A stretch of 64,000 nucleotides of DNA, taken from the NCBI GenBank assembly GCA_000092065.1, contig CP000593.1; one strand, 5' to 3'. The position numbers and the translations under genes are program-made. The notes under the pieces were generated by a model that saw only the letters and a program-made list of their open reading frames with translations, made no database searches and was not told where the DNA came from. This DNA comes from Ostreococcus lucimarinus (lineage: Eukaryota). Shown piece after piece: positions 12,221 to 58,212 of the stretch; the stretch's first letter is position 1, and every line of letters begins with the position of its first letter.

Positions 12221-12399
12221 CGGCGCCGCCGTGTGCCGGTCGCGGGCCGGGGTGATTGCGCGATGACTTCCCGGACTGTTTGCCCATACGGAAACTGCCG
12301 CGGACGATTTCGAGCCGTTCGTTCGCCCGTCGCCGCACCGCGCGACGCGCGACGACGGCGACGCGGGCGCCGACGCGCGGCGCGGCGACGACGGCGACG

Positions 12400-15300: not shown

Positions 15301-16833
15301 CACGTGCTCGACCTGTTCTCGGAAGAAATCATCCGTGGAACTGCAGCGGCGCCACTTTCTCAAATGCTCAGAGTTCTCGACCCAGTTATTCGTAATGTTG
15401 CGAACATGGGCAGCTGGCAAATCGTCAGTAACGCCGAGTGTAGTGGCGTGATTGTTTCGGTCGCATCCCTCGCCGATGTGCAAAATGTCAAGTATTCTCA
15501 ACCGACTGTCATTATTGCCGACCGCGTTGGTGGCGAAGAGGACATTCCGGTTGGCGTGGTCGCGATCGTTACTCCTGATATGCCAGATGTGCTGTCTCAC
15601 TGCGCCGTTCGCGCCCGTAACGAAAAGGTTCTTTTCGCTACTTTGTTTGACGTGAATGTTCTAGAACAGATGAAAGCCATGACCGGGAAATCCGTGCAAC
15701 TCAAGCCGTCTGCGCAGGGCGACGATTTGCAATTCGATGTTGTCGACGGCATCATCGGTACCGACGCGGAGGTCATAGCAACATCGTCGAGCGATTCCGT
15801 TTCGAGTGACATATCGATCATCAAACGTCCGTTTCAAGGAAAATTTGTCGCCACGTCATCAGAGTTTACCCCAGAGCTTGTCGGCGGCAAATCTCGAAAC
15901 TTGCAACTCCTTCGCGGTCGAGTCTCAAACCTCATAAAGTTACCGCCGTCCGTTGCGATGCCTTTTGGTACGTTCGATGCAGTTCTTGATGTCCCTGAGA
16001 ATGCAGGCGCAAAGAGACAAATTGCAGAGTTAGTCAAACAACTTGAAGCGTACGACTCCACAGACGGCGTTGGCTTCAAAGCACTCATTGCGGAAGTCAA
16101 GGCATGTATCGCCACTTTAAAACCGACGGCCGACCTGTCGAAAAGTTTGAAAGTCGCCTTCGAAGCCGAATCACTCGGTTGGCCGGGAGATCTCGTGACG
16201 AGCGCTCAAGGTCAAAAGGCATGGAAGACGATTCTTGGCGTATGGGCAAGCAAGTACAACGAGCGAGCCGTTTTGAGTTGCAAAAAGGCAGGGCTGAATC
16301 ACGCCGATTTGTCCATGGCTGTGCTTTGTCAGCCCGTCGTTCGTGCGCGATACGCATTCGTACTGCACACAGTGAATCCACAAAACAACGACAAGAGCGA
16401 AATTTACGGTGAGCTTGTGTGTGGTCTGGGCGAAGCGCTCGTCGGTAACTTTTCTGGTCGAGCATTGTCATTCAAGACATCCAAGAGCAATTTGGATAAT
16501 CCGACCGTCGTCGGGTTCCCTTCGAAGTCAAAAGGACTTTTCATGGAGCAAGATTCACTTATTTTCCGATCCGATAGTAACGGCGAAGACCTGGAAGGGT
16601 TCGCCGGTGCGGGCTTGTACGATAGCATCACCATGGAGGAGGCAACGTTGAAAAACGTCGACTACTCCACCGACAGCCTCATTACGGACGAAACCAAGCG
16701 ACAAAAGCTTTTAGCGACCATCTCCAAGGTTGCACTAGAGATTGAGACACTTTGTGGGTCTCCTCAAGACATTGAGGGCGCGATATCTGAAGATGGGCAG
16801 CTCTACATCGTTCAAACGCGACCTCAAGTGTAG
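12400..16833 (+). CDS. GWD: alpha-glucan, water dikinase (GWD/R1/SEX1-type starch phosphorylating enzyme)
   Basis: ORF 12256..16833 begins at TTG; the first ATG is 12400 (MTPRVATTATT). It has two N-terminal HWG repeats (VTFHWGV, LIIHWGATT) like CBM45 modules. The phosphohistidine loop is TPDMPDVLSHCAVRARNEKVLFAT. The C-terminal PPDK-type nucleotide-binding domain shows GGKSRNLQ...FRSDSNGEDLEGFAGAGLYDS...LYIVQTRPQ. Confidence 0.9.
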   Translation: MTPRVATTATTRPTPRATRDERRARGGRRAAAAAHDGRRSDAMGRAMTTRGGERTTRGRSTSYDEAMTTRESGETRPRRAETTMEGEGGCAATATRTTNAQGVHTVSIALKTLPKGVANAREVTFHWGVMREKTGKTWQVLPSELHPPNTEYYKGDKAMRSAFPVWGPVNLVLDPQAKSVAFALYVEKTGEWINAVGGGNFEIDLAAETPSTAVKAAASAVEAPAPTPKEEILKTAPKVTVKATATEMTSALTDPIELLIADMARVEWEAVGRPGLDAQTRDDMLRRAADQIKSKLAEGMSFEQIAAGDASVKSVPKVVATEAPKVVAKTIETPIATKKFSLEDFQAVAQDRATDDTNVKWNKLYEEGGTTIFVEAREVNGSGIQLHVLADSKDDLIIHWGATTTTDGSWKPPPHGFSTQPSRSWASSGSSWETELERISPNLRAVTLDVPLDVKAREGIIFVLRTTSNKWIKNGRDDFFASLEGSVLERPAKTEKKSERRKDSQQDRSRKESRSEPVVVKVAKKEKPAPIKRDRWDVDDIALDQGVFQNLGGFVAQDMVDRICGEESGATRSLMHRYNAGADMLGAMHGAGEPGLTALFCWFRFMALRQLVWNNDYNIKPREISAAQARMTEGLSAIYRQDPEYRDIVRLIMATIGRGGDGDVGQRIRDEILAVQQKNNCKGGMMEEWHQKLHNNTSPDDVPICEALLKFIAADCDISVYWAHLHANGIDAARMKAYDRQICSEPSFSRDQYEGLTADLTEYLRTLKAVHSGADLDSAAEACLGYHQDACKGKEINIPPIREVASERLEELLCAARELRSEDPLLALEAMIEARRYLWTWTRPGGKSNDRIKDVIYLDLALEGAARSVIEGSLESLPTRAPYEVLRIMSLVLENLCMSASGNHELRICLKEWQNVLEAARRQGDWALQAKAVCDRLQNSLGEISQRYIDALQPTAQSMGNKLGVDGHVLDLFSEEIIRGTAAAPLSQMLRVLDPVIRNVANMGSWQIVSNAECSGVIVSVASLADVQNVKYSQPTVIIADRVGGEEDIPVGVVAIVTPDMPDVLSHCAVRARNEKVLFATLFDVNVLEQMKAMTGKSVQLKPSAQGDDLQFDVVDGIIGTDAEVIATSSSDSVSSDISIIKRPFQGKFVATSSEFTPELVGGKSRNLQLLRGRVSNLIKLPPSVAMPFGTFDAVLDVPENAGAKRQIAELVKQLEAYDSTDGVGFKALIAEVKACIATLKPTADLSKSLKVAFEAESLGWPGDLVTSAQGQKAWKTILGVWASKYNERAVLSCKKAGLNHADLSMAVLCQPVVRARYAFVLHTVNPQNNDKSEIYGELVCGLGEALVGNFSGRALSFKTSKSNLDNPTVVGFPSKSKGLFMEQDSLIFRSDSNGEDLEGFAGAGLYDSITMEEATLKNVDYSTDSLITDETKRQKLLATISKVALEIETLCGSPQDIEGAISEDGQLYIVQTRPQV

Positions 16834-18809: not shown

Positions 18810-19051
18810 GTCGACGGCGAGTCTGACGACGCACGACGACGCGTTATGACGACGAACACGCGCCGCAATCCGATCGCGATTATTTTTAACGACCTCGCGA
18901 TGGGACGTCGGTCGAGGTTCGCGAACCGCGCTCGGCACCGGGACGAGATTTTAGAGACTGTGCTCGACAAACGACGCGATGAAGTCGTCGAGGGGGGAGA
19001 GAGTGGAGCGAAAACGACGCGATGACAACACAAAAATAGTATAATGTTACA

Positions 19052-21655
19052 TCACGCCGCGAGCTCTGTCGCGAGCGCGCTCAAGAGGACGTCGCACGCG
19101 TCTTTGGACGTCGTCGGCGCGCACATGAGGTAGACGACGTTACCCAGAGGACGCGCTTGGATGGAGTGGGGAAGAAGACGCATGACGACGTCTCGAGCGG
19201 CGTTGGAGCTATAACCACCTTCACCTTCGACCTCGAGCTCGACGGCGAGGACACAACCCTGACCGATGACTCGGCGAACGTTGCTCAAAGTGGAAATTTT
19301 CTTCAACGCGTCCTCGTCCCAGAGCTCGCGAAGCACCGACGTAGGCTCGCCCGTACTCGAAGACTTTGAGACGATCACGTTGCGATTTTTCGCGGGGTCT
19401 TTGTACATAGAAAGCGCTTTCGCCGCCACGGCGCATCCCATGGGGTATGCCGTGTACGAGTGCCCGTGTAACAAGCCCTGGGCTTTTCCAGGGCCGTAAA
19501 AAGCGTCGAAGACATCCGCCGTCGCGAGCGTGGCTGACATGGGAATGAGCCCACCAGTGAGAAGTTTTGCGTAGCACGAAATATCGGGTTTTTCGCCTAT
19601 GATTTCCCACGCACCTTCCGTGCCTAATCGCCAAATGCCAGCAAATACCTCGTCCAAGACGACTGGAATCTTTCGCTCGCGGCACGACTTCATGAGAATG
19701 TTTTGAAACAACGGATCAATCAAAACCATCCCACCTGCACCGTGAAGCACGGGTTCCATGATTAAAGCCCCGACGTGACCCATGTTATTATCCTTGGCGT
19801 CTTTCGCGGCGCGTTCTAAGACTTTGTCGATCGCAATTTTGTATTCTTTTGCGAGCGGGCTGTCGAGACGCGCAGCGATGTTGAAAGCCGCCTCCTTGCT
19901 AGTCCAACTGGTGTTCTCATCCACATCTTTGCCTTCGCGGAAGAGTCGATCGCCGTCGTTCAATAATCCATCACGCGGCAACGCCACGTTCCAACGTCCT
20001 TCTCTGATCGCTAAACTCGGAGGCTGAAGGAACAGTCCGCGAGGTTGGTACCAGGGCGTTTGCATTGGACCCGTAAAAACGCTCGGTGATTGCATATCCA
20101 TCGCACCGAGAGTATCACCGTGATACGAACCATCCAATGCTATTATTCGCAGCGGAGGTAAGTCATCGGCTCCTTTGTTGACGAGATCTTTCGCTCTCTG
20201 ATTGCCGTCTTTAGACACAAAGCCTGCGTCGACGTAAAACTTGCGAAAAGCCATTTTCAACCCAACCTCTGTCGCAGTCGATCCGTTGTCGGAATAAAAT
20301 GCTCTAGCTGCCCAACCTTTCCCAGGTCCTTCTAATAATGCCGTCGTCGCGTCCACGGCGGGCTGGTGCACGTTTTCTGGAAACATCGCGTGCCCGAATC
20401 GTCCCGCCGCATGCGTCGCGGTGCGAACCAACTCTTGCTGCAATTCTGGACTCAAACCTTGCGTCCACCAACTCGCTGAACCATCAAAGCGAAGTACTAT
20501 GGAGCCATCTTTCGATGAGTGCGTGTTTTGGGCGTAGATTGCGAAATCTTCACCATATCTCCCATCGATCACCGTGACGGCGTCGCGCTCCACCATCGCG
20601 TGCTGCGTAAACGGCCACCAAATCTTCGTCAGAGCCTCGTCTGGAAGACTTTGCAGAGTTTTGATGCGATCGTCGTGCCATTTTGTGATGTATTTCAGTA
20701 AATCGTCGAACGTGTGCTTTGAGTCTTCGAGCCAAGCGTCCGCTTGTCCTTCTGGGGGCAGAGGCGGAAGCGCCCAGACGCGGGTTTCGCTCGGCAAAAT
20801 CTTTGCCATGGCTTTGTGATTGGCCAAACCATCATCGTCCGCCATGACGATGGCGACGATGTCGTACCCTCTCGCGTGCAGTGATTCGTACGCGGCCGTG
20901 GTGGCAGATATCCCGCCCAAACGCCCGTCACCCACGAGTATGGCTGGCAATCGTAGCCCGCGCAAAAGCTCGCATTGCAGCGTTCCCGACGGCCCCGGAC
21001 TCGCCACCCCTCCCGCGGTTTCGACGAGCGCCAACGCTCGCTGCTGCCCCGATTCGTTCGCTCGCATTTTTTCCGCGAATTCTCTCAAATATCTCGACGT
21101 CGCTCGCACGATGTCATCGTCTAAAACGCCTCTCCCCTCCTCCGCCGCGCTCACGTGCGGCCCCGCGGGGCGTCGCCACGCAAACTCGGTGTGCGCCCAC
21201 GCCCCTCGATCGCCCTCTAATCCTTTCCTCGCCGTTTCTCCCGCCGCCACCGCCGCGTGTTCGCCCATGCTCTCCACGCCACCGCTCACGCGCGCCACGA
21301 ACGCGGCGTCTGAATCTTCTGGGAATCCCGTCTGCACGGGTTTCACGAAGAGCGTCCCCGCCTCCGCGCTCCGCGCCGCGCGCGCCAGTCCTCCCGACAC
21401 CAGCGTCTTCCCGACCGCGGTGTTCGCCCCCCACACCGCGAACGCGGCGCACGTCAGTTCGACGTCCCGCGCCGCCCGCGTCGCCAGCGCGCGGCGTCCC
21501 GCGTCCCGCTCGACCCGTCGCTCGCGCGCGCGCGGTAACCGCCGCGCCGTCGTCGTCGTCGTCGTCGTCGTCGTCGCGCCCGTCGTCGCGCCCGTCGTCG
21601 CGCCCGCGCATCGTCGCGCGAGCGCGCGCATCGCGTCGCGTCGTCCGCCTCGCAT
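19052..21655 (-). CDS. BIO3-BIO1: bifunctional dethiobiotin synthetase / DAPA aminotransferase (plant-type BIO3-BIO1, BioD-BioA fusion)
   Basis: The N-terminal half has the DTBS P-loop FAVWGANTAVGKTLVSGGL...KPVQTG. The C-terminal half is a class-III aminotransferase (WWPFTQH...GSYHGDT...VLDEVFAGIWRLG). The ORF extends to 22021, but that extension overlaps the CSN7 gene. The first sensible ATG is 21655-21653 (MRGGRRDAMRALARR). Confidence 0.85.
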   Translation of the reverse strand: MRGGRRDAMRALARRCAGATTGATTGATTTTTTTTTARRLPRARERRVERDAGRRALATRAARDVELTCAAFAVWGANTAVGKTLVSGGLARAARSAEAGTLFVKPVQTGFPEDSDAAFVARVSGGVESMGEHAAVAAGETARKGLEGDRGAWAHTEFAWRRPAGPHVSAAEEGRGVLDDDIVRATSRYLREFAEKMRANESGQQRALALVETAGGVASPGPSGTLQCELLRGLRLPAILVGDGRLGGISATTAAYESLHARGYDIVAIVMADDDGLANHKAMAKILPSETRVWALPPLPPEGQADAWLEDSKHTFDDLLKYITKWHDDRIKTLQSLPDEALTKIWWPFTQHAMVERDAVTVIDGRYGEDFAIYAQNTHSSKDGSIVLRFDGSASWWTQGLSPELQQELVRTATHAAGRFGHAMFPENVHQPAVDATTALLEGPGKGWAARAFYSDNGSTATEVGLKMAFRKFYVDAGFVSKDGNQRAKDLVNKGADDLPPLRIIALDGSYHGDTLGAMDMQSPSVFTGPMQTPWYQPRGLFLQPPSLAIREGRWNVALPRDGLLNDGDRLFREGKDVDENTSWTSKEAAFNIAARLDSPLAKEYKIAIDKVLERAAKDAKDNNMGHVGALIMEPVLHGAGGMVLIDPLFQNILMKSCRERKIPVVLDEVFAGIWRLGTEGAWEIIGEKPDISCYAKLLTGGLIPMSATLATADVFDAFYGPGKAQGLLHGHSYTAYPMGCAVAAKALSMYKDPAKNRNVIVSKSSSTGEPTSVLRELWDEDALKKISTLSNVRRVIGQGCVLAVELEVEGEGGYSSNAARDVVMRLLPHSIQARPLGNVVYLMCAPTTSKDACDVLLSALATELAA
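21547..21609. repeat. (CGT)9 followed by a 12-bp repeat (cgcgcccgtcgt) x~3, inside the BIO3-BIO1 presequence
   Basis: On the coding (minus) strand this encodes GATTGATTGATTTTTTTTT. The units were read directly from the sequence. Confidence 0.85.

Positions 21656-24133: not shown

Positions 24134-24178
<45 letters not shown>
24134..24178. repeat. (GAC)15 trinucleotide microsatellite in the RACK1-ADA2 divergent spacer
   Basis: A perfect run of gac units, counted directly from 24134 to 24178. Confidence 0.95.
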
Positions 24179-24180
<2 letters not shown>

Positions 24181-24307
24181 GCGCGAGTCGCGCGTGAACG
24201 CACGCGAGTGAGCGCGCGCACGACCGTCGAGGACGCGCGCGACGGGAACGCGGACGCGGAGGTAACGCGACGCATCGGCATCGGCGTTCGGCATCGCATT
24301 CGGCGCC

Positions 24308-25954
24308 ATGGCGAGCGCGCTCGTGCCGAAACGGCGACGGGTGGCGACGGAAAACGCGATGACGAAGCTGAGTGGGAACGGGGAGTCGTGCGCACTGTTT
24401 AACTGTAACTATTGCCAAAAGGACATCTCGAACGTGGTGCGCGTACGGTGCGCGGAGTGCGCAAACGTGGATCTGTGCACGGAGTGCTTCGCGGTCGGCG
24501 TGGAGCCGCACCCGCACAAGGCGTATCATCAGTATCACGTCATCGACAACATGTCGTTTCCGCTGTTCACGCGAGATTGGGGGGCTGACGAAGAGTTGTT
24601 ATTGCTGGAGGCAGTGGAGATGTTCGGGTTGGGGAACTGGACCGAGGTGAGCGAACACGTCGGGACGAAGACGCGCGCGCAGTGTCACGCGCACTATTTT
24701 GAAGTCTACGTCAAGTCTCCTTGCGCGCCGTTACCGGATATGTCGAAGATTTTAGGAAAAGGCGTCGCGCGTATGACATCAGACGAGCTCAAAGCGGAGG
24801 CGGAGCAAAAGGCGAACGAAAATAAGGATGTGGAGGAGGAGGAGAAGCTTCTCGAATCGCTTGCTAACCCGAACGCAGTGAAGACGGAGGGCAACGTGCA
24901 GGAACTCACAGGTTACAACATCAAGCGCAATGAGTTCGATCCCGAATACGACATGGATGCCGAACTTCCCCTGGCGGAGATGGAATTTCGCGAAAACGAC
25001 ACCGAAGAAGACGTCCAGATGAAGCTGCGAATGATTGAAATCTACAACAGCCGGCTTCAAGAACGAGCGAGAAGAAAACAATTCATTCTCGAACGCAATC
25101 TGCTGAACGTGAAAAAGCAACAAAACGTGGAAAAGAAGCGTTCACAATACGAGCGCGACTTACACGGCACCATGCGTATATTTGCACGCTTTCTCACGAG
25201 TACCGAGTACGACGTCTTGCTCGAGGGTCTCGCCGCGGAGCACCGAATCCGAACCCGCATCACCGAACTGAAAGAGTACAGACGCAATGGTATTCATACC
25301 ATCGCAGAGGGCGAGGATTACGATTTGGAGAAGCGTCGTCGTGAGACGGAGTTCGCTCGTCTACACGCGATCGAGCATCCAACTAGCAAGAACATAGCCA
25401 GAGCGAACAAGTTCATCGTGCGAGATGCCACACAAATCAATGAGCAGTTGACTCGCATGAACGACGAAGACAAGACGGTATCCGTGATCCCGACGCCTCG
25501 TACGTCGAGCTTAGGTCCTCGCCGTCGAATGTACTTGTCACTTGATCTCGCCGATCTTCCAGGCGTAGACCTTTTGAACGACGACGAAAAGGAGTTGTGC
25601 AGGAGCTGTCGCTTATTGCCTGTGCAGTATCTCTCGATGAAGGTGGAGTTGATGCGAGAGGGTCTCAAGTCCGAAAAGCCGCTCAACAGAAATCACGTTC
25701 GGAATATGTTCAAAGTAGACCCACTCAAGGCTATTCGTGTGTATGAGTTACTCCTACAGCACGGCTGGGTGTTGGAAGACGGCTTCGTGAACCCAGGTGA
25801 GGATGAAGACTCCGAACCTGCGCCGAAAAAGTCAGCCAGCGCAGACGAGGAGGAAGACGAGGAGGACGATGAAGTAGATTACGAAACCGACGATAACGAC
25901 GAAGACGAGGACGAGGAAGACGACGAGGAAGAGGATAGCGAGGAAGACGATTAG
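24308..25954 (+). CDS. ADA2: transcriptional adaptor ADA2 (ZZ finger, SANT, SWIRM)
   Basis: ATG verified at 24308. ZZ finger: CNYCQKDISNVVRVRCAECANVDLCTECF...HPHKAYHQY. SANT: WGADEELLLLEAVEMFGLGNWTEVSEHVGTKTRAQCHAHY. C-terminal SWIRM: LLNDDEKELCRSCRLLPVQYLSMK. The tail is acidic. Confidence 0.85.
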   Translation: MASALVPKRRRVATENAMTKLSGNGESCALFNCNYCQKDISNVVRVRCAECANVDLCTECFAVGVEPHPHKAYHQYHVIDNMSFPLFTRDWGADEELLLLEAVEMFGLGNWTEVSEHVGTKTRAQCHAHYFEVYVKSPCAPLPDMSKILGKGVARMTSDELKAEAEQKANENKDVEEEEKLLESLANPNAVKTEGNVQELTGYNIKRNEFDPEYDMDAELPLAEMEFRENDTEEDVQMKLRMIEIYNSRLQERARRKQFILERNLLNVKKQQNVEKKRSQYERDLHGTMRIFARFLTSTEYDVLLEGLAAEHRIRTRITELKEYRRNGIHTIAEGEDYDLEKRRRETEFARLHAIEHPTSKNIARANKFIVRDATQINEQLTRMNDEDKTVSVIPTPRTSSLGPRRRMYLSLDLADLPGVDLLNDDEKELCRSCRLLPVQYLSMKVELMREGLKSEKPLNRNHVRNMFKVDPLKAIRVYELLLQHGWVLEDGFVNPGEDEDSEPAPKKSASADEEEDEEDDEVDYETDDNDEDEDEEDDEEEDSEEDD

Positions 25955-26072
25955 CATGAGACGTTTTCTCCTCATTAGATTTTACAGTGCTGTAGTGACA
26001 TATGACGGGAGTCATTTATTATTAATTTTTTCCCCAGCGTAGAAGCGATCGCCCCGTGCTGCCTGTCGTCTA

Positions 26073-27905
26073 CTACGTGAATTTCACTCTGTTTTGAGGG
26101 TCCATGCTTTCTTTGATTCCACGATACACCAATCCAAGCGAACGGCCTGCGTTAGAGAGAGTAAGTCGATGCACAAAATAATTAATTTCAAACGCACCAA
26201 TTAATGTCACCAGTAACCAAGAAGCCACCCGGCTGCAGTTGTTCAGTGCGCTTCTGAACAAGGGAAGGCTCACATCAGCGAGTTCTATTATCATAGAAAC
26301 AGCTAAACGAAATCCCTTCACCTTTGCGAGCTCTGGCTGGCGACAAACGTGAATTTTCCTCGTCACGAGCTGTGTGAAAAATAATTAATTTCAGCGACAA
26401 ATTAAAAAATTAATTCAAACGCGCCGTCGCGCGGAGATACGTACCTCGCCGTTTGCATTCATGCCCCACAATTTATGCCAATCTTCGTACATCGCGACCA
26501 CGTCGTAATAATTGCGTGCAAGCCACGTGCGCAATGATGTTTCATTTCGAAATTTTTCCAACGAACGTGTGCTCTTCAAGCGAACGCTCAACGCGTCTCT
26601 GAACGGTGGAATGCGCACGACCGCTCCTGTGTCCTCCGTACGTGCGACTCCACCATTTACAGGCGCTTGTAGCCCGCTTTCACGCGCACACGTCACGTAA
26701 GCACACGCCACGGAGTCGGCAATATTTAATACCACGTCCTGCAAAACCGAAACGCACACCGAAGCCATAGGAGAATTGAAGAATTCCAGCACCGGTTCGA
26801 CGTCTTGAGTGTTAATTTTCGTCGATTTCTCAACGACTTGAACGCTTTCGGAAATATTGTCCGTTCGATTGGAGTTCTGCGATGATTGAAATAATTCAGA
26901 ATAATTAAATAAATATTTGTGAAGCTCAGCGAAAGTTAGACGTACCTTGGCCAAATACATCATCACTCCGGCATACAAAGCCATCTTACTTCCTTCAAGT
27001 ATTTCTCCTGTGAAAAACGCGATCAGCTCGGTCGAAGACGAAAGCGAGATCATACGTACCGTTCTGCCAAATTTTTTCATCGGCCACGTCTCCGGCCACG
27101 CGAACCACCCGAGCGCACCGCTCCTTGGCGCCGATGTCAAGCGCCATCGAATTCATCCAATCATTCGCGGAGACCCTAGCCACTGTTTGAATGAGTTCAC
27201 GCAAGCTTCCGTTGCTCTCTTCTATGTTCTCGAGCCCTTCTTTAAGCGCCAAGAGCACCACCCCTATGAGTTGTGCCCTGGCGCCGTCGTTGAGCGCCTG
27301 CAATTCAAGTTGCGGGGACGTGCCTTCTACCCCGCGTGAGTCCCACCAACCAATCGCTACGACGTCGCCTCCGACACCAGCTAACCCTTGACCCGCGGCG
27401 TGGAATATATCATCTCTTCCCGCGTCGGGCTTAAGCAAACTCTCCACGCGCGCCTGGGTGAGCTCTGCGGCTCGCGTTCTCGAGTTTGTCTTCGCGGCGT
27501 CTAACGACTCGTTTTCCCGCTCGATTTCGACAGTATCGTCGTGTCCAAGCAGTATTGGTAACGCCTTCGATGCCTACGAATGAAAATAAATCGGTCAGCC
27601 TCAATCTTCGTCGCGTTTGCGCTCGTTTGCTTCACCGAGAGCGTGCGGCGAGAGGCAACAAAACCACTCTTGACATCGCTCTGTCGGCGCGCACCGATCG
27701 ATTTTAGGTCCGAATCTCGCGCTTGTCGATAACGTACCCTTTGAACGAACGTCTCCAACCCGTTTCTCGCCGCGTCGACGAGATCGACGCCGATTTGCGC
27801 CCGTCGAACCGTTTCTAACCTGCTCCCGCCGCGACGCCCACGCCATCCTCGGCGCGCCGTCGGTGCGCTCGCGAGCGATCGCGACGACGTCGAAACCGAG
27901 AGCAT
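26073..27905 (-). CDS. six-exon gene for a conserved green-lineage protein (DUF3685-like, name from memory)
   Basis: Structure: join(27905..27738, 27573..27060, 27007..26946, 26876..26445, 26369..26198, 26146..26073), totalling 1422 nt (473 aa). All phases are consistent. The splice pattern joins pieces of ORFs 27501..27983, 26995..27447, 26415..27140 and 26073..26366. The C-terminus ...LKSTRSLEKFRNETSLRTWLARNYYDVVAMYEDWHKLWGMNANGE|LVTRKIHVCRQPELAKVKGF...LVTLIG|RSLGLVYRGIKES resembles DUF3685 proteins. Confidence 0.75.
26147..26197 (-). other. intron 5 (51 nt, AT-rich)
   Basis: TTAATTG|gtgcgtttgaaattaattattttgtgcatcgacttactctctctaacgcag|GCCGTTCG. Phase 1 is restored, yielding ...TLIGRSLGL. 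Confidence 0.8.
26370..26444 (-). other. intron 4 (75 nt, AT-rich)
   Basis: GGCGAG|gtacgtatctcc...ttgaattaattttttaatttgtcgctgaaattaattatttttcacacag|CTCGTG. Confidence 0.8.
26877..26945 (-). other. intron 3 (69 nt, AT-rich)
   Basis: GCCAAG|gtacgtctaactttcgctgagc...tatttatttaattattctgaattatttcaatcatcgcag|AACTCC. Confidence 0.75.
27008..27059 (-). other. intron 2 (52 nt)
   Basis: CAGAACG|gtacgtatgatctcgctttcgtcttcgaccgagctgatcgcgtttttcacag|GAGAAATA. Phase 1 is restored across the splice. Confidence 0.7.
27574..27737 (-). other. intron 1 of the six-exon gene (164 nt)
   Basis: CAAAGG|gtacgttatcg...ggctgaccgatttattttcattcgtag|GCATCG. Exon 1 and exon 2 lie in different frames, and exon 2 has an in-frame TAG just upstream of it. 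Confidence 0.65.
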
Positions 27906-28277
27906 GTTCGTGTGGACGCTTTCGCAAATTTCGCCGCGCGCTGTGACGCGCGCGCGGTCTCGCGCTCTGGTTCGGCGCTTCAACGGTCGCCACGAACGTC
28001 GCTTCGTTCGCGCGCGCGGCGCGCGGGGGCCGACGCGGCGTTTATCGCGCGCGTACCGTGTTTGCAGATAGTTCTAAATTGTCTTTGAGTGCGTGATTTT
28101 TCGACGACGATTTCGTAGGGTTGCGCGCCCTCGAGACGCCCACGAAATCGCTCGACGCGCGTTCGTTTTGGCGTTCGTTCGTTCGAAATCGACTCGACGC
28201 GCGTCCACGTCGACCGCGCGCGTGATCGGCGGTGCGCCCGCAGACGGACGCGCGCGGCGCGCGTGCGGACGAATATC

Positions 28278-29312
28278 ATGCACGTCACCAACGTCGGCGG
28301 TTCGTTAACCACCGCCGTGTGTCTGTCTCTCATCGCCTGGTCCGTGCGCGTCTTGCGAAGCGCCAAGCACAGAGATCGAGCGAGACAGCGAACGACGTCG
28401 AGCTCGCAACCGACGGTGAAATTGAACAAACAGACGTACGGGGTGCTGAGTGCGAAAGCGTTTTGGATGTTGGTTCAAACGAAACCGGTGAAATACTTGC
28501 TATTAGACGTCAGACCGAAGAGCGAGGACGGGGGGGCGACGGCGGTGACGAAGCTGAGCGACAGACTCGCCGTGACGCACATCTTACCGGAAGAGTTGGC
28601 GAACTTGTTGCGCAATCGTAACACACTGTGGAAGAAGAGATTTCCAAACATTCCCGTGCCGAGTTTAAGGACGACGATGATTTTTGTGAGCACGCACGGG
28701 CATAGCTCGTCGCACGCCGCGGCGCTCGCGACGAGCCTGGGATTCACGCGGTGCTCCATCGTGGACGGCGGACTCGCCGCGGCGGTACCTCTAGCACACT
28801 TCGACGAACCCGCTGTGTTTTCATCAGGGAAAGATCGAGCTCTGAGCTTCGACGCGGTGTTACTTCTCCTGGAAACGGTGAGAGACGACGGCAATGCGCT
28901 GGGACTAGTGATTTTGGACATTCGAAGGTTTGACGAGCGCGCGCTTTACGGAACACTCGAGGGGTCAACGCACGTCCCGGTGGATCATCTGCCCAAAGCA
29001 GTGCATATGAACGATGAAGAGTGGGTGCGGATGTTCCGATTTCACAAGCCGACGTCGGATAATCTCATCTTGTTGCATAGCCGAAGCAGTAGTTCCGCGG
29101 CGTGGGCGAAGCAGCTGCTTTCAGACGCCGGTTTGCACAACTGCCATTCTTACGTCGACGGCGCGTATGCCGGTCCTGATGGGACTTTAAGAAGTTACGA
29201 GGCATACGAAGAGGGTGGTGCACCCCCGGAGCCGGTGAGTATCGGACAAAGTGTGACGTTTAATCGAACGAGCGCCGAGCGAGAGTTGCTCAACTTGAGA
29301 ATTCGTGTGTAG
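28278..29312 (+). CDS. membrane-anchored protein with two rhodanese-like domains, both lacking the catalytic Cys
   Basis: ORF 28263 begins at GTG; ATG is at 28278 (MHVTNVGGSLTTAVCLSLIAWSV, an N-terminal hydrophobic anchor). Domain 1: YLLLDVRP...MIFVSTHGHSSSHAAALATSLGF...VDGG. Domain 2: LVILDIRR...LILLHSRSSSSAAWAKQLLSDAGL...VDGAY. The position of the active-site Cys is Ser or Thr in both loops. Confidence 0.75.
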   Translation: MHVTNVGGSLTTAVCLSLIAWSVRVLRSAKHRDRARQRTTSSSQPTVKLNKQTYGVLSAKAFWMLVQTKPVKYLLLDVRPKSEDGGATAVTKLSDRLAVTHILPEELANLLRNRNTLWKKRFPNIPVPSLRTTMIFVSTHGHSSSHAAALATSLGFTRCSIVDGGLAAAVPLAHFDEPAVFSSGKDRALSFDAVLLLLETVRDDGNALGLVILDIRRFDERALYGTLEGSTHVPVDHLPKAVHMNDEEWVRMFRFHKPTSDNLILLHSRSSSSAAWAKQLLSDAGLHNCHSYVDGAYAGPDGTLRSYEAYEEGGAPPEPVSIGQSVTFNRTSAERELLNLRIRV

Positions 29313-29431
29313 TTTGTAAGTTAGAATTAGATCAAAACAATGATGAGGCGGAGGTGTAAGTATATCACAATAATCGTATTTCTGTCGTTTGCTCGTTTGA
29401 AGTCAACAAGCGCGTAAGGTAAGTTATAATT

Positions 29432-31051
29432 CTAATTGATGGCTGGCGAAAGTTGCGGGTTCGCGAACTTCGGAAGTAAAACGTCGTCGATTTGCTCCGC
29501 CGTGCCCATGTCTCTGACGAATTTCCAGAACGCGACGAAAATGCCGGGAAGTGTTCTGTATGACGAGTAAGGAATGCCCATCTTCGCCGCTTCTTCCGCG
29601 ACAATTTTCGCGATCGCGGGGTAGTGCACAAAGCAAATCGCCGGGAACAGGTGATGCTCGACTTGCAAGTTCAGACCGCCGGTGAAAAAGTTTCCAATCT
29701 TTCCACCCCAGTCAGCGCTAGTCACCAACTGCTGCACGCCCCAATCTCTTTCCCACGCCTCTCCACCGGTATCTTCAGGGAGTTTGGCCTCGGGCACGTT
29801 GTGACTCACCGCGAACGTACACGCGAGGACGACTCCTTGGCACGCCATGAAACCGACGATGCCGGCGACGACGGCGGAAGCCGCGTGGCTCATCAAAGGT
29901 GCAGCCAACAAACCGAAGTGCACAAACTTGCCGATAACTACGGTGGCAAGTTCCCAAGTGGTCGCCCCGTGGAGCTTTGCGCCTTCGGTATCGCGAGTGA
30001 ACAAACCGACGATGTCGCCGACTTGGAACGCCACCTGCAACAACGGAAAGGCCAAGAACATGTACCAGTGCTGGAAGCGGTGGTACCACGCCTTGGGACG
30101 ACGAGCGTCGAAACGCAAGAGAGGCATGGCGGTGTACACGTCTTGATCCATAGCATTGTCGTTGCAGTGAATGTGGTGGCTCACCTGGTGGTGGTATCGC
30201 CACATCAAAGACGAGCCGCCGATGAGATCGTTCGTCAAACCGAGGACGCCGTTGACGGCGGGCGACGGTGACATCGCCCCGTGATTGGCGCAATGCTGAA
30301 TCGTGAGCCCGATCCACGCACCAGCTAAGCCAAGGAGGCAACCCGAGAGAAAGCCCGGGATGGTGGCGTACACACCGTACGCAAACGCGGCGAAAGACAA
30401 AATCGTTATCGTCGCGTGGTCGCCACCCATTCTGTGTTTGTTCTTCCCTTCTTCCGGGAAAAGTTCCTCGCGAACGCGATTGCGGATGTTGTTGTACAGC
30501 GGCGAATCGTTCGGTCTCGGTGACTTCGCCACGGCGTCGACCGGGAACCCCTCGAGCTTGGGTAACATCCTGAAGCGCGCCGTCGCCACCTCTGGTCGCA
30601 AGTGATAGGATTCCATGAGCGCCGTGCAGTCGCGACCGATGGCGAGGTTCAACAACCAGTTCCCGCCCGGATGCTTCTCAAAGAACGGTCCGAGGTCGTA
30701 CGCCACGTCTCGAAACACCGTCCACTTCACCTTTTGCCACTTCTCATCGTTCCACGGATCCTCCATCCCCGGCGCCGCGACGTCCGGGCGCGGCAACCTC
30801 AGCGCCTCGCGTCTCGCCTCCAGGGACATCATCTTCTCCCCCTCCTCGCCCTCGACGCTTCTTTCGACGACCGCGGCGTTCCCTTCGCCCTCGATCGATC
30901 GCGGAACGATCGCATACCTCCCCGATCGCGCGCGCCGCGCGTCCGCGCGCACCGCGCTCGTCGTCGCGCGCGTCGTCGTCGCTCGACGGCGATAATCACA
31001 CCTCGCGCTCGACGTCGTCGTCGTCGCGAACGCGCGCGCGACGGTGCGCAT
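29432..31051 (-). CDS. front-end fatty-acid desaturase with N-terminal cytochrome b5 domain (regiospecificity not assignable by eye)
   Basis: Cytochrome b5 motif: FEKHPGGNW. His boxes: HCANHGA, WRYHHQVSHHIHCN and QVEHHLFP (a Q-type third box, typical of front-end desaturases). The likely start is ATG 31051-31049 (MRTVARAFATTTTSSARC, presequence-like). An upstream in-frame ATG at 31297 is also possible. Confidence 0.85.
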   Translation of the reverse strand: MRTVARAFATTTTSSARCDYRRRATTTRATTSAVRADARRARSGRYAIVPRSIEGEGNAAVVERSVEGEEGEKMMSLEARREALRLPRPDVAAPGMEDPWNDEKWQKVKWTVFRDVAYDLGPFFEKHPGGNWLLNLAIGRDCTALMESYHLRPEVATARFRMLPKLEGFPVDAVAKSPRPNDSPLYNNIRNRVREELFPEEGKNKHRMGGDHATITILSFAAFAYGVYATIPGFLSGCLLGLAGAWIGLTIQHCANHGAMSPSPAVNGVLGLTNDLIGGSSLMWRYHHQVSHHIHCNDNAMDQDVYTAMPLLRFDARRPKAWYHRFQHWYMFLAFPLLQVAFQVGDIVGLFTRDTEGAKLHGATTWELATVVIGKFVHFGLLAAPLMSHAASAVVAGIVGFMACQGVVLACTFAVSHNVPEAKLPEDTGGEAWERDWGVQQLVTSADWGGKIGNFFTGGLNLQVEHHLFPAICFVHYPAIAKIVAEEAAKMGIPYSSYRTLPGIFVAFWKFVRDMGTAEQIDDVLLPKFANPQLSPAIN

Positions 31052-38337: not shown

Positions 38338-41300
38338 CTATAAATACTTCAGCCCGACGATCTTCGCTCGACGCTGGAGGGTGTGCTGGGTGACGACGGC
38401 GATGAGACTGGTGAAGGCGAGCGCGCGCACGGAGGGAATTTTTGAAAGAAACGGCGCCACGACGGCGAGCGGGGCGGTCAAGATGAGCGTCATCCCGTCC
38501 GTGCGAACGCTCGTGGCGAGGTAGTGCACCAAATTGATGCTATTCACCGAAGCGAGGAGCAGACTCAACGCGTTGAGCGTCATCCACGGCAACTTGGAGG
38601 CGGTCGCGGCGAGAACGTGAACTCGGTTCGGGCCGGCGAGGATGGCGGCGACGGCGTCCCAGCACATCTTACCCACGATCATCGCGAGCGGTGGAGCGTA
38701 TCGTTGGCTGTCTTCCAGTATAGGAAATATCACCGAGTCTTGGTGAAGAAGAAGCAGAATGGGCGCGAGGACGAAGACCGAAAACGCGGAGCCATCGGCC
38801 AACTCATCGCTCAGCACCACGCACGCGAGAAAGGACGTGAGCGTGGCGATGTTCCCGATGATTGGCATCCAAGCGATCGCCTTTGCCTTGAGTTCTCTGT
38901 GCTCGTTTCTGCTCGCGACACCGCGGAAATATTCCGGACGACTGCGACCAGTGGCGGGAAGGAACGGTGAAGTACCGCCTTGACGTCGTCGATGTTGCAC
39001 GCTCTCCAGGCTCGTTTTGATTCTCAACTTCAGAGCAAACGCGATTTGCAGCGAAGTCCCGGCGAAAACGCCGACGACACCGAATTTTCCTTCCATTCTC
39101 GCCTGATGGTCGTCCACAGTCTCGTCTGAGCCACCCATTTGTGTGACGTACGCCAAGCCGAGAACGGAGACGAACGATAAATACACGTAAGGCAACCAGC
39201 GCGAAGACTTCGGCGAAGGGCTGTACGTGAAAGACAAGAACACTCCCACCAGCGCACACGCGACAAATAGTAGTGCCGTCAGCGCCACTTGCTGGACGAA
39301 GAATTCCAGCGCCATATATAAACCAACGCTCCCACCGCACACGGCGCTTAAGGCGATTCGAATCGTTGACGTTGATTTTGTCTGTTGTCGTGGAGACGAG
39401 ACGGCGAATATCGCGGTGAGCGCGGCTAACATCAGCAACCAGCTCGGCCATCCATGATGCGCGTTCTCGCGCACGCCGTACATTCTCGCTTCGTCTTCTT
39501 CAGAGTCGGGAACGTGTTCGGCGTCATACCACATGCCCACCTCGCCCTTCCAAGGCATCGGCGGTCGGAAGGTGATGAGAAAGACGCCACAGAAACTCAA
39601 GAGCATCATCAATCGTTTGCTAAACATGTCATCACCGTAACTTTGTCGCGTTACCACGGACGCCAAGCTCGCCCCCGTGATCAGGAGGAGTCCACCGAAG
39701 AGCGTCGCGTCCGTCGGTCGGTGACCCGAGAGTTCAAATATAACGTCAAACATCGCAAACCGAGCGAATACCAAAGAGAACACCAAAGCGACGCAATAAC
39801 CAACGCTCGCGCCCGGAGATAATTGAGTCATTCGCCGTGACATCGCGTGCGGAGCGGTGATGGCGAGCACGACCACCAAGACGCTGAACATTTCCTTCAA
39901 ACCGCGAACAAAGAGCATGGAGAGCTTTGCGCCGCACACGCTCTGCATCACCCAGCCAAATTCGCGACTGATTCTCCCGCTGATGACGAGGCCTCGACTC
40001 GCCAAGAAGCCGCTGATGGAAGTGACGATGACCAAATATGGTGGATAAATCAAAGAATCGTCGTCATGCGTCGCTTGACTCAGGATTTGTTCAATCGTTG
40101 CGAGCGCCGAGACGTAACAGACGACGAGGACGCCAACCGTCGGCGCGCGCGCGCTTTTCGTATTCAACACCGCTGGCAAAGCCAAAGCCGCCACGGCGAG
40201 GAGTAATATGGCGACACACAATTGTTTGACGTCGAAAGCTCCCACGCGCACATCGAGTGACCAGAAATTCTTCGAAAGAAACCACGAAAAGCATCCGACG
40301 CAACTCGCGGCAAACACGCCGTAATCCTTCGGCTCTCGGTCCTCGTAATAATATTTGACGAATGACGATGATCCGGCGATGGGGATCGGAATCATCCACA
40401 GAGGTGCACCCAAAGCACAAATTGCGGTCGACGTAGACAGAGCCAACGTCGCCTTCACCGCACCCGTCGGGACGCCGTCGCCGACGGCGTTTGCGTAGCA
40501 CGCGGCGAAAACTGCCAGCGCGCTGTGGACGGAAACCGTCACCATGATGTAATTCAAAGGAGCCATGATTTCGATGTACTCGGCAAATTCACTAAATATT
40601 ATTCCACCTTCAACGCTCACCGCAAATCCAGTGAGTGCGAAGAGGAGCACGGCGGTTTCCATCCTTTTCGACGCCACGTCGACGCCGCGCGCGCGCCACC
40701 ACAACGACTTCTCCGTGCCGGCGGCTATTAAATACAACACCGGGACCGTCACCAACGCCCCACACGCGAAGACGTGATCGAGGGACTTGAACAGTGTGTC
40801 GAGGTTCGTCCATAAATACAACGCGACGGGTAAGCCGAGCGTGGCCACGGTGGCGTACTCGGCGTCGCTCTCGGTCAACGCCGAGCGCTTGTCCGACGGA
40901 GGCCCGTTCGTCTTCGTCACCGCCGCGCACGCGCTCGCGCACGGAAACAAAAACATCCGATGCGTGATCAACGACACGACCGAGCCGTAAAACGCCGCTC
41001 TCTCAGCTCCCGCGCTCGCGCTCGCGAACGCCCACGTCAGAATCGTCGTCGTCGTCGGCGGACACAGCGCGAAAATCAAACGCTCGCACGTCGCCGCCGC
41101 GCCCGCGTGCGACTCGTGTATCCACCGAAATTGCAGCGTGCACCACGAGCAAAATAAAAACAAATTCACCCCATTCACCGCGAGCAGCGCGCACGACGTC
41201 CCGACCGTCGCGCTCGTCCGCCAGCTCCCTCTCGTCAGCAGCGTCCCGAGCGCCGCCGTCGCCGTCGTCCAAATCGCGCCCAGCGCCCCCTCTCCGTTCC

Positions 41301-45387: not shown

Positions 45388-45450
45388 CGACGTTCGCCTC
45401 GTCGCCTCGTCCCGTCGTCCCGTCGTCCCGTCGTCGCGCGTCGTCGCGCG

Positions 45451-58190: not shown

Positions 58191-58212
58191 TACGTAATAT
58201 AAAATCAAAAAT

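What the first reader, a model, noticed from the sequence alone, without database searches (positions are those of the whole stretch)
26073..27905. One six-exon gene with AT-rich mini-introns that share a 16-mer, among intron-poor neighbours
This gene has five introns in 1.8 kb (164, 52, 69, 75 and 51 nt), whereas neighbouring genes have none or one. Introns 3-5 are strikingly AT-rich against the GC-rich background. Introns 4 and 5 share an identical 16-mer (plus strand aaaataattaatttca at 26378-26393 and 26175-26190). Intron 4 contains a second degenerate copy (aattaattcaaacgc versus aattaatttcaaacgc in intron 5). Intron 3 carries aataatt motifs. This looks like intron duplication or spread within a gene, or a shared AT-rich splicing or regulatory element. 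The exons are also less GC-rich than most of the window.
Basis: seen in the sequence. Interest (0 to 1): 0.55.

Follow-up and report, generated by a model that had tools for sequence, protein, structure and literature searches.

The report
Conserved AT-rich motif in mini-introns
A real six-exon nuclear gene of the tiny green alga Ostreococcus lucimarinus has three very short AT-rich introns that carry an AATTAATT-type motif, kept in every Ostreococcus lineage sampled, so this is an old and probably functional intron signal, not a recent intron duplication.

Summary
The window is O. lucimarinus nuclear DNA. The minus-strand gene 27905..26073 encodes a 473-aa DUF3685 (Ycf55-like) protein. Its five introns are 164, 52, 69, 75 and 51 nt, and an assembled contig lacking exactly these five intervals supports all five junctions. 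The 16-mer occurs twice in 64 kb, with none expected.

This is not a recent duplication. About eight Ostreococcus lineages, including O. tauri and a lineage matching the transcriptome of Ostreococcus sp. RCC789, have all five introns at the same positions and phases. Micromonas-like orthologues in the same gene neighbourhood have none, and a Closterium homologue has introns elsewhere.

Introns 1-2 keep only their splice signals. Introns 3-5 keep an (AATT)n/TAATTA core, although four-fold sites are near saturation. AATTAATT is found nowhere else in the window, once in the flanks of the other Ostreococcus loci (a 3'UTR), and never in 181 kb of outgroup loci.

All five introns lack the ACTGAC branch point typical of non-chromosome-2 introns. 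Introns 3-5 look like the short AT-rich "BOC1/chromosome 2" introns, but they sit on a standard chromosome.

Best reading: a conserved AU-rich element that lets weak mini-introns be recognised. A DNA-level palindromic binding site, or an ancient common origin of the three introns, cannot be excluded. No genome-wide scan was possible.

The parts
26073..27905 (-). Six-exon gene (CDS with stop) for a 473-aa DUF3685/Ycf55-like protein. Exons: 27905-27738, 27573-27060, 27007-26946, 26876-26445, 26369-26198, 26146-26073.
   Evidence: The spliced ORF is intact. Pfam PF12452 scores 68.9 bits against a cut-off of 25. The protein is identical to P0001, encoded without interruption on contig L001.
27574..27737 (-). 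Intron 1: 164 nt, phase 0 after codon 56, GC 0.53, branch-point-like GGCTGACC.
   Evidence: Present at the same site at 153-169 nt in all Ostreococcus lineages, with little sequence conservation.
27008..27059 (-). Intron 2: 52 nt, phase 1 in codon 228, GC 0.50, branch-point-like GCTGATC.
   Evidence: Only the splice sites and a CT.A branch-point core are conserved across lineages.
26877..26945 (-). Intron 3: 69 nt, phase 0 after codon 248, GC 0.30. The AT-rich block TATTTATTTAATTATTCTGAATTATTTCA lies around the CTGAA branch-point-like site.
   Evidence: The 29-mer is identical in lineage L004, which is 68% identical at the protein level (0 of 2000 shuffles). TAATTA is present in 7 of 9 distinct sequences.
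26370..26444 (-). Intron 4: 75 nt, phase 0 after codon 392, GC 0.37. It holds the 16-mer and an upstream degenerate copy.
   Evidence: AATTAATT is present in intron 4 of 9 of 9 distinct Ostreococcus sequences and ends about 9-15 nt before the 3' splice site.
26147..26197 (-). Intron 5: 51 nt, phase 1 in codon 450, GC 0.37. The 16-mer starts 8 nt after the 5' splice site.
   Evidence: TAATTA is present in 7 of 9 and AATTAATT in 4 of 9 distinct sequences, always just downstream of the 5' splice site.
26378..26393 (-). 16-mer copy in intron 4 (sense strand TGAAATTAATTATTTT; palindromic core AATTAATT).
26175..26190 (-). 16-mer copy in intron 5.
26408..26422 (-). Degenerate third copy in the 5' half of intron 4 (sense GCGTTTGAATTAATT). 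It resembles the start of intron 5 (GTGCGTTTGAAATTAATT).
   Evidence: A related patch is kept in several lineages.
26198..26206 (-). Last 9 nt of exon 5 (sense CATTAATTG, coding TLIG). It is motif-like and includes the rare Leu codon TTA, which is invariant in 10 sequences.
26009..26034 (.). AT-rich island in the 118-nt spacer between the convergent DUF3685 and ADA2 genes (3' UTR / poly(A) region). A sense-strand TGTAA lies nearby.
   Evidence: Comparable AT islands with TGTAA lie at gene 3' ends in other Ostreococcus loci.

Best explanation
The gene is an ordinary, expressed nuclear gene for a plastid-derived Ycf55-like (DUF3685) protein. It acquired five spliceosomal introns in the Ostreococcus lineage.

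All five introns lack the strong ACTGAC branch point typical of O. lucimarinus introns outside chromosome 2. Introns 3-5 are 'chromosome-2/BOC1-type' mini-introns: 51-89 nt, about 30-46% GC across lineages (0.30-0.37 in this strain), with degenerate branch points.

Their shared 16-mer is one strain's version of an AU-rich element, (AAUU)n / UAAUUA followed by U-rich sequence, conserved across the genus. I infer that it acts in the pre-mRNA as an intron-recognition signal. Its placement suggests three roles. In intron 5, just downstream of the 5' splice site, it would be a U/AU-rich enhancer. In intron 4, between the branch region and the 3' splice site, it would stand in for a polypyrimidine tract or supply UUAAU branch-like sites. 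In intron 3 it flanks the branch point. Together with the sharp drop in GC, this would let weak introns be spliced outside the intron-rich chromosome-2 domain.

Shown: the introns, their age, the conservation of the motif and its local specificity. Inferred: the splicing role.
For: Splicing. A contig lacking exactly the five intervals carries the intact ORF. A second lineage has a contig identical to the genomic one except for precise loss of introns 4 and 5. An MMETSP transcript protein of Ostreococcus sp. RCC789 matches lineage D. Removing the five predicted introns gives intact 473-479-aa ORFs in eight lineages.

Conservation beyond neutrality. Four-fold sites are only 38-46% identical. Even so, intron 4 keeps AATTAATTAATT.TTT in at least 80% of 10 distinct sequences and intron 5 keeps A.TTAATTATT. 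Intron 2 keeps only its splice sites and CT.A.

Motif counts. AATTAATT is in intron 4 of 9 of 9 sequences, where the per-intron shuffle probability is 0.009-0.041. TAATTA is in 7/9, 9/9 and 7/9 of introns 3-5 and in 0/9 of introns 1-2.

Fixed placement relative to splice signals.

Strand bias. T/(A+T) on the sense strand is 0.56-0.61 in introns 3-5 against 0.50-0.52 in introns 1-2.

Weak core signals. None of the five introns contains ACTGAC, whereas 87% of confirmed non-chromosome-2 introns do (PMC2483917). The literature already proposes that the GC drop aids recognition of BOC1 introns (PMC3879977).
Against: No functional test was possible.

The conserved core is a perfect palindrome. That is more typical of a double-stranded DNA site or a tetranucleotide repeat than of a single-strand RNA-protein site.

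Conservation is not absolute. In the sister lineage L067, intron 5 has two changes inside the motif, and lineage L004/L031 has AATTAAATT there.

Published descriptions of BOC1 introns report no conserved motif, so the element may be gene-specific rather than a general splicing signal.

I could not scan an Ostreococcus genome to see whether other short AT-rich introns carry it.
Confidence: 0.5

Rival explanations
1. Common origin plus low-complexity dynamics. Introns 3-5 arose in the Ostreococcus stem lineage from one source: an ancient introner-like insertion, intron transposition or local duplication. The (AATT)n/(ATTT)n tracts persist through replication slippage and selection for AT content only, with no sequence-specific function.
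For: The orthologues in Micromonas-like relatives, in the same gene neighbourhood, have no introns. The Closterium homologue has introns at other positions. This fits lineage-specific gain. Repeat number and type vary between lineages: (AATT)2-4, and (ATTT)n expanded in O. tauri intron 3, which is 88 nt. The 5' half of intron 4 resembles the start of intron 5.
Against: Similarity between introns is confined to 12-23 nt. Arrays of 8-12 nt slip rarely, yet the block is kept at four-fold-site saturation. No further copies occur in the window or, bar one 3'UTR hit, in the Ostreococcus flanks. True introners in the M. pusilla-like orthologue L083 share 62-88% identity over 140-185 nt in many copies, which is quite unlike this case.
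Confidence: 0.2
2. DNA-level element. The palindromic AATTAATT/TAATTA blocks are double-stranded binding sites, for example for a homeodomain, AT-hook or ARID-type protein, a nucleosome-excluding linker, or an origin-type AT island. They sit in introns because those are the only places in this compact gene that tolerate AT-rich sequence.
For: The core is a perfect palindrome and is conserved in sequence, not only in AT content. Four of the 13 AT-rich islands in the 64-kb window cluster within about 0.9 kb here. The motif is absent from the window outside this gene and all but absent from the Ostreococcus flanks. That TAATTA is a homeodomain core and AATT an AT-hook site is from my own knowledge and was not tested.
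Against: The blocks show sense-strand T>A asymmetry and run into T-rich tracts next to the splice sites. Their position is fixed relative to splice signals rather than to each other. The syntenic Micromonas-like loci have no AT island here. No binding protein is known.
Confidence: 0.15
3. RNA-RNA pairing. The self-complementary (AAUU)n copies pair within or between introns to shape the pre-mRNA, bringing splice sites together or presenting the branch point in a loop.
For: In some lineages two copies flank the branch point of intron 3 (L020, L026). The minimum-energy fold of O. lucimarinus intron 4 has a 10-bp AU stem.
Against: Folding ten introns from six of the Ostreococcus lineages (A, O. 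tauri, D, E, F, G) gives z-scores from -2.2 to +1.65, mostly near 0, and no common structure. Intron 5 has a single copy. Pairing between neighbouring introns would favour exon skipping. Rfam finds nothing.
Confidence: 0.05
4. Chance or composition. Two AT-rich introns share a 16-mer because AT-only sequence has low complexity, and the AT-richness only reflects the low-GC 3' end of the gene.
For: Genes in the window generally fall from GC3 of about 0.8 to about 0.6 from 5' to 3'. AT-only sequence raises chance matches.
Against: 0 of 2000 dinucleotide shuffles reach 16 nt. Intron GC (0.30-0.37) is far below local GC3 (0.5-0.6). The motif recurs at orthologous positions in every lineage.
Confidence: 0.03

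Closest known systems
BOC1 / 'chromosome 2' introns of Mamiellales (Derelle 2006; Irimia & Roy 2008, PMC2483917; Moreau 2012, PMC3491373; Verhelst 2013, PMC3879977)
   Same: Introns 3-5 are short (51-75 nt here, 51-89 nt across lineages), AT-rich (GC 0.30-0.37 here), and have weak or degenerate branch points and GTRNGN-type 5' sites. There are several per gene, and they are set off from the exons by a sharp GC drop.
   Different: The gene is not in the low-GC BOC1 region. It lies on 321,799-bp and 528,469-bp records (the chr9/13-chr21 duplication), in a window of about 0.60 GC that is collinear with O. tauri and even with Micromonas. BOC1 introns are described as having no conserved motif, whereas these share a genus-wide (AATT)n/TAATTA block. 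Introns 1-2 of the same gene are not AT-rich.
Canonical non-chromosome-2 Ostreococcus introns
   Same: GT-AG introns on a standard chromosome. Intron 1 has a CTGAC core about 27 nt from the 3' end.
   Different: None of the five has ACTGAC or GACTGACG. The 5' sites are GTACGT(T/A/C) or GTGCGTT rather than GTGCGTG. Four of the five are far shorter than the reported mean of about 188 nt. Five introns in one gene is exceptional, since about 396 introns are predicted for all non-chromosome-2 genes.
Introner elements (Micromonas pusilla and other introner families)
   Same: Introns of one gene share sequence, and the introns appear to be lineage-specific gains.
   Different: Introners are many near-full-length copies, often polymorphic for presence. 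Here the sharing is limited to 12-23 nt, the positions are fixed across the genus, and no other copies were seen. The M. pusilla-like orthologue L083 shows what real introners look like in this very gene.
AU/U-rich intron requirement of plant splicing (Goodall & Filipowicz 1989; UBP1/RBP45/47-type U-rich binding proteins) - from my own knowledge
   Same: AU-rich intron sequence, largely independent of position, marks short introns against GC-richer exons. This is the mechanism I propose by analogy.
   Different: The plant requirement is compositional. Here a specific palindromic core is conserved. No Ostreococcus factor or experiment is known to me.

Membership tests
BOC1 (chromosome-2-type) introns | Short (<75 nt; typically 40-65 nt) | tested here: inconclusive
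   Intron 3 is 69 nt and intron 5 is 51 nt, so both meet it. Intron 4 is 75 nt, which is borderline. Intron 2 is 52 nt and meets it. Intron 1 is 164 nt and does not. The definition is from PMC3879977.
BOC1 (chromosome-2-type) introns | AT-rich (<43% GC) | tested here: met
   Introns 3-5 have GC of 0.30, 0.37 and 0.37. Introns 1-2 have 0.53 and 0.50 and do not qualify.
BOC1 (chromosome-2-type) introns | Located in the low-GC BOC1 region of the big outlier chromosome (chr 2 in O. lucimarinus), which lacks collinearity between species | tested here: not met
   The annotated copies lie on records of 321,799 and 528,469 bp. Chr21 is a fusion of duplicated chr9/chr13 segments (PMC2367439). Window GC is about 0.60. 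Gene order is collinear with O. tauri over 22 kb and with a Micromonas-like contig. That chr 2 is larger than these records is inferred from its gene count of 489.
BOC1 (chromosome-2-type) introns | No strong branch-point or 5' splice-site consensus, and no conserved motif | tested here: inconclusive
   The branch points of introns 3-5 are degenerate (CTGAA, TGAAC, TTCAC...) and the 5' sites vary as GTRNGN, which meets the first part. A conserved (AATT)n/TAATTA block is present, which contradicts 'no conserved motif'.
[quoted passage not shown] | ACTGAC (often GACTGACG) branch point and GTGCGTG 5' site | tested here: not met
   None of the five intron sequences contains ACTGAC. The 5' sites are GTACGTT, GTACGTA, GTACGTC, GTACGTA and GTGCGTT. 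The consensus is from PMC2483917.
Introner elements | Many copies sharing similarity over most of their length | tested here: not met
   The longest shared string is 16 nt and the rest of the introns are unrelated. There is no other copy in 64 kb and only one, in a 3'UTR, in the flanks of the Ostreococcus loci. Genome-wide copy number could not be tested.
Introner elements | Recent gain, with presence/absence differences between close relatives | tested here: not met
   All five introns are present at identical sites in about eight lineages with 64-69% protein identity.
Spliceosomal introns (that these are real introns) | Precise removal from RNA, GT-AG ends, restoration of the reading frame | tested here: met
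   Contig L001 lacks exactly the five intervals. L028 lacks exactly introns 4 and 5 of its lineage. An MMETSP transcript supports lineage D. ORFs are intact after removal.
DUF3685 / Ycf55-like proteins (the host gene) | Match to Pfam PF12452 above the gathering score | tested here: met
   68.9 bits against a cut-off of 25, E = 6e-19, residues 345-461. The ycf55 link is from PMC4226036.
Intron-hosted structured RNA (snoRNA etc.) | Match to a known RNA family or a stable conserved fold | tested here: not met
   No Rfam hit at E<=1 in 25800-28300. Folding z-scores are near 0.
Plant-type AU-rich intron recognition element | AU-rich sequence required for splicing efficiency | not testable with these tools
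   Needs mutagenesis or a minigene assay. Only the composition, placement and conservation are shown.

The most novel reading that the evidence does not exclude
The (AATT)n/TAATTA blocks are a specific, genus-wide cis-element that has not been described. There are two versions. One is a dedicated splicing enhancer that allows chromosome-2-type weak introns to be spliced outside the intron-rich BOC1 domain, which bears directly on Irimia & Roy's 'natural experiment' about local spliceosome availability. The other is a palindromic protein-binding DNA element (regulatory, chromatin or replication) hidden in three lineage-specific introns of one gene.
Probability: 0.2. Interest if true: 0.65.

Novelty: new variant of a known kind. 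Interest (0 to 1): 0.4.

Why it matters
Mamiellales genomes are a textbook case of two intron regimes in one nucleus. One is a few strong-signal introns over most of the genome. The other is many weak, short, AT-rich introns confined to the low-GC half of one chromosome. How a single spliceosome serves both regimes is unresolved.

This gene combines three things: a standard chromosomal location, weak AT-rich mini-introns, and a conserved motif. It is therefore a small, tractable test case in a genus where O. tauri can be engineered by homologous recombination. If the motif proves necessary for splicing, it would identify a cis-signal for the weak-intron class. If not, it points to a DNA-level element.

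The case also documents lineage-specific gain of five introns in a gene of plastid or cyanobacterial ancestry. It sits beside an independent invasion of the same gene by introner elements in a Micromonas pusilla-like lineage.

On present evidence it is a modest curiosity rather than a surprise.

Tried and rejected
1. RNA hairpin or self-pairing of (AAUU)n. Folding ten introns from six of the Ostreococcus lineages gave z-scores from -2.2 to +1.65 and no common structure.

2. Intron-encoded known RNA. No Rfam match at E<=1.

3. 'Three-frame stop' role for TAA-rich (AATT)n to trigger decay of retained introns. O. lucimarinus introns 3 (69 nt) and 5 (51 nt) are multiples of three with no in-frame stop.

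4. Poly(A)-signal-like islands. AT islands at gene 3' ends carry TGTAA, whereas by eye the sense strand of introns 3-5 has no TGTAA. I ranked use as terminators for the convergent ADA2 transcript low and did not test it.

5. Widespread synonymous constraint in the exons, which would indicate a hidden overlapping element. Mean pairwise codon identity at invariant residues is 0.51 and no window reaches 0.75. Only the TTA codon at the end of exon 5 stands out.

6. A heuristic splice-site scan of the whole window, meant to list all introns, was too noisy to use.

7. Sampling true BOC1 introns for the motif. I found no route with these tools.

8. A literature search for the motif in Ostreococcus found only a Hi-C ligation-site string.

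9. A conserved AT island at the syntenic Micromonas-like locus. None was found.
Full report
**What is there.** The minus strand of 26073-27905 reads as a six-exon gene. Removing 27737-27574 (164 nt), 27059-27008 (52), 26945-26877 (69), 26444-26370 (75) and 26197-26147 (51) gives an uninterrupted 1422-nt CDS of 473 aa. All five introns are GT-AG. Their phases are 0, 1, 0, 0 and 1, after or in codons 56, 228, 248, 392 and 450. Intron GC is 0.53, 0.50, 0.30, 0.37 and 0.37. Exon GC falls from 0.66 to 0.42-0.50.

The plus-strand 16-mer AAAATAATTAATTTCA lies at 26175-26190 and 26378-26393. It occurs nowhere else in 64 kb even with two mismatches allowed, and none is expected. Sixteen shared bases between introns 4 and 5 were never reached in 2000 dinucleotide shuffles, whose maximum was 10.

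**Organism, protein and transcript support.** The spliced protein is 100% identical over its C-terminal 275 aa to a predicted protein of Ostreococcus lucimarinus CCE9901. It is also 100% identical to a 473-aa protein called on a Logan contig. That contig (L001, SRR28369099) carries the ORF without interruption. It matches the window from 28221 to 24158 with gaps at exactly the five introns. The NCBI O. lucimarinus models splice introns 2-5 identically but start at an internal Met. The protein has a DUF3685 domain (PF12452, 68.9 bits). This is the C-terminal domain of plastid Ycf55 and of cyanobacterial CheY-like regulators (PMC4226036).

**Genomic setting.** The gene is present twice in the O. 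lucimarinus assembly, on records of 321,799 bp and 528,469 bp. This fits the published statement that chromosome 21 is a fusion of duplicated parts of chromosomes 9 and 13 (PMC2367439).

Neither record is the big outlier chromosome 2 or the 149-kb small outlier chromosome 18. For chromosome 2 this rests on inference from its gene count. The window has about 0.60 GC. It is collinear with 22 kb of O. tauri. The local order fatty-acid desaturase / rhodanese / DUF3685 / ADA2 is kept even on a 1.4-Mb Micromonas-like contig.

The immediate neighbours have no introns. In O. tauri, four of 12 syntenic genes carry 134-304 nt of intron.

Only 13 AT-rich islands (at least 17 of 20 A/T) exist in the window. 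Four belong to this gene: introns 3, 4 and 5, and the 3' UTR. Seven of the other nine lie at gene 3' ends and two lie inside long ORFs; 3'-end islands in the other Ostreococcus loci carry TGTAA. Nearly all genes in the window show GC3 falling from about 0.8 to about 0.6 from 5' to 3'. The low-GC 3' exons are therefore partly a general feature.

**Orthologues.** O. tauri (L002) and a third species (L004) have the same six exons. Exons 2-6 are 511-514, 62, 432, 172 and 74 nt. Their introns are 165/168, 55/53, 88/69, 77/78 and 52/52 nt, with the same phases and similar GC.

A scan of metagenome contigs returned 76 loci. These include about eight distinct Ostreococcus-like lineages with GC of 0.50-0.57. 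All of them have the five introns at the same sites. Removing the introns gives intact ORFs of 473-479 aa.

One lineage matches an MMETSP transcript protein of Ostreococcus sp. RCC789. In another, contig L028 equals genomic L031 except for exact loss of the 78-nt intron 4 and the 52-nt intron 5, so it is a partly spliced RNA.

By contrast, the roughly 30 Micromonas- or Mantoniella-like orthologues (GC 0.57-0.71) that gave a single uninterrupted match span all five sites. The M. pusilla-like loci L082/L083 are the exception: they carry introner-type introns at other positions. A Closterium homologue has introns at other positions, for example KFRNE|V and RGW|K, and none at the sites of introns 4 and 5. 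The simplest reading is that the introns were gained in the Ostreococcus stem lineage. Loss in the sister family cannot be excluded, and no Bathycoccus orthologue was found.

**The motif is old and conserved.** Protein identity between the three fully analysed species is 64-69%, and four-fold sites are only 38-46% identical. Introns 1 and 2 have diverged accordingly. Across 12 distinct sequences, intron 2 keeps only GT, a CT.A branch core and AG.

- Intron 3 of O. lucimarinus shares an identical 29-mer, TATTTATTTAATTATTCTGAATTATTTCA, with L004 (0 of 2000 shuffles).
- Intron 4 keeps AATTAATTAATT.TTT in at least 80% of 10 distinct sequences. The block ends 9-15 nt before the 3' splice site.
- Intron 5 keeps A.TTAATTATT, starting 8-12 nt after the 5' splice site.

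AATTAATT is present in intron 4 of 9 of 9 sequences, in intron 5 of 4 of 9, and in intron 3 of 3 of 9. TAATTA is present in 7/9, 9/9 and 7/9 of introns 3-5. Neither occurs in any intron 1 or 2. The per-intron shuffle probabilities are 0.001-0.16.

AATTAATT occurs three times in the window, all in introns 4 and 5, against 0.24 expected. In about 25 Ostreococcus loci it occurs only inside this gene's introns plus one 3' UTR. It does not occur in 181 kb of outgroup loci.

The exact 16-mer identity is a feature of this strain. In the sister lineage L067, intron 4 is identical (0 of 75 differences), but intron 5 has six changes, two of them in the motif.

**What kind of introns these are.** Irimia & Roy (PMC2483917) made two points about O. 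lucimarinus.

- Of confirmed introns outside chromosome 2, 87% contain ACTGAC, and these introns favour GTGCGTG at the 5' site. Chromosome-2 introns have weak branch points and GTRNGT.
- 1748 of 2148 predicted introns lie on chromosome 2, and only about 396 lie elsewhere.

BOC1 introns are defined as shorter than 75 nt, below 43% GC, located in the low-GC BOC1 region, and without a conserved motif (PMC3879977; PMC3491373).

None of the five introns here has ACTGAC, and the 5' sites are GTACGTN or GTGCGTT. Introns 3-5 meet the size and GC criteria, although intron 4 is borderline at 75 nt. They fail the location criterion, and they do carry a conserved block. The gene is therefore an isolated, intron-dense gene with BOC1-like introns on a standard chromosome. 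I could not find this combination described.

**Mechanism.** I tested and rejected three ideas: a conserved RNA hairpin (z-scores from -2.2 to +1.65), a known RNA family, and a three-frame-stop function.

Four observations favour an RNA-level role:

- the fixed placement next to splice signals;
- the continuity with T-rich tracts;
- a sense-strand T excess of 0.56-0.61 in introns 3-5, against 0.50-0.52 in introns 1-2;
- the weak core signals of these introns.

UUAAU also fits the loose YURAY branch consensus, but that is inference only.

I therefore favour an AU-rich intron-recognition element, analogous to the AU-rich requirement of plant introns (own knowledge) and to the 'GC drop' idea for BOC1 introns. 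My confidence is about 0.5.

The perfect palindromy and the sequence-specific conservation keep a DNA-level binding site alive as a rival, at about 0.15. The variable repeat number, with (AATT)2-4 and (ATTT)n, together with the lineage-specific origin, keeps 'common origin plus slippage, no specific function' alive at about 0.2.

True introners look very different. The M. pusilla-like orthologue L083 carries at least five repeated elements of 140-185 nt, 62-88% identical to each other. Further copies lie in the neighbouring gene.

**Verdict.** The gene and its introns are real, and the repeat is real and non-random. The 'recent intron spread' reading is not supported. The 'shared AT-rich element' reading is supported and extended to the whole genus.

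Novelty is moderate: a new variant of the known AT-rich mini-intron class, found outside its usual genomic compartment and carrying a conserved motif.

The main gap is the lack of a genome-wide census of the motif and of any functional test.

Noticed in passing
L083:468-1415 and 3295-4433 (also L082): A Micromonas pusilla-like orthologue of the same DUF3685 gene is interrupted by at least five repeated elements of about 140-185 nt, starting GGTAGGGCGGTGCAGGTTGA... and 62-88% identical to each other. More copies in the opposite orientation lie in the neighbouring gene. These look like introner elements, so the same gene was invaded independently in another lineage.
   Followed up: partly
L083:1493-1527, 1642-1717, 1904-1965: Two other introns of that orthologue contain plant-type telomere-like repeats: (GGGTTTA)n at one end and (CCCTAAA)n at the other. 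This looks like an inverted-repeat arrangement inside an intron. I have no explanation.
   Followed up: no
L083 about 1485-1742 and about 1896-2230; L084 (Closterium) introns after KFRNE and after RGW: Two intron positions in the M. pusilla-like orthologue appear to coincide, within a residue or two, with intron positions in the Closterium homologue. All other Micromonas-like orthologues have no introns. I have not checked whether this reflects ancient introns or parallel insertion.
   Followed up: no
L002:10001-12131 (O. tauri RCC1115, GCA_002158475.1): The deposited 581-aa model (P0003) reads through intron 5 into a frameshifted tail (…TLIGAFELIICRL…). Splicing the five conserved introns gives a 473-aa protein collinear with the others. 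The two O. lucimarinus NCBI models (275 and 278 aa) are truncated at the N-terminus.
   Followed up: yes
window 26073-27905 and a second genomic copy not in the window: The gene exists twice in the O. lucimarinus assembly: ABP01216.1 on a 321,799-bp record and ABO99390.1 on a 528,469-bp record. This fits the reported chr9/chr13 to chr21 duplication.
   Followed up: partly
window 24158-28221: One assembled transcript contig (L001) spans both convergent genes, DUF3685 and ADA2, whose stop codons are only 118 nt apart. This implies overlapping 3' UTRs or read-through transcription.
   Followed up: no
window, whole (e.g. 2271-2309, 19030-19052, 29420-29440, 43383-43475, 48271-48290, 58184-58218): Apart from this gene's introns, most AT-rich islands lie at gene 3' ends, mostly between convergent genes. 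Some in the window, and most in the other Ostreococcus loci, include TGTAA, the green-algal poly(A) signal (from my own knowledge). Two weaker islands (10842-10861, 40584-40604) lie inside long ORFs.
   Followed up: partly
window, most long ORFs (e.g. 12256-16833, 3129-5726, 44858-48199): GC3 falls from about 0.8 in the first quarter of a gene to about 0.55-0.65 in the last quarter. GC peaks of about 0.70 lie at presumed promoter regions rich in CGCG.
   Followed up: partly
L028 versus L031:2100-4100: A metagenome-collection contig is identical to the genomic sequence of its lineage apart from precise removal of introns 4 and 5, while introns 1-3 are retained. It is a partly spliced RNA and suggests that the 3' AT-rich introns are removed before introns 1-3.
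   Followed up: partly
window 26945-26877 and 26197-26147: In O. lucimarinus, introns 3 (69 nt) and 5 (51 nt) are multiples of three with no in-frame stop. Retention would therefore add 23 or 17 residues in frame. Prokaryote-style gene callers read through them (P0006, P0007).
   Followed up: partly
P0041 (Micromonas-like orthologue), alignment A1 columns 566-590: There is a 26-residue in-frame insertion (MQVSISQSPHTASAIAHTRLTLSCSS) in an otherwise collinear orthologue. It is probably a read-through intron at yet another position.
   Followed up: no
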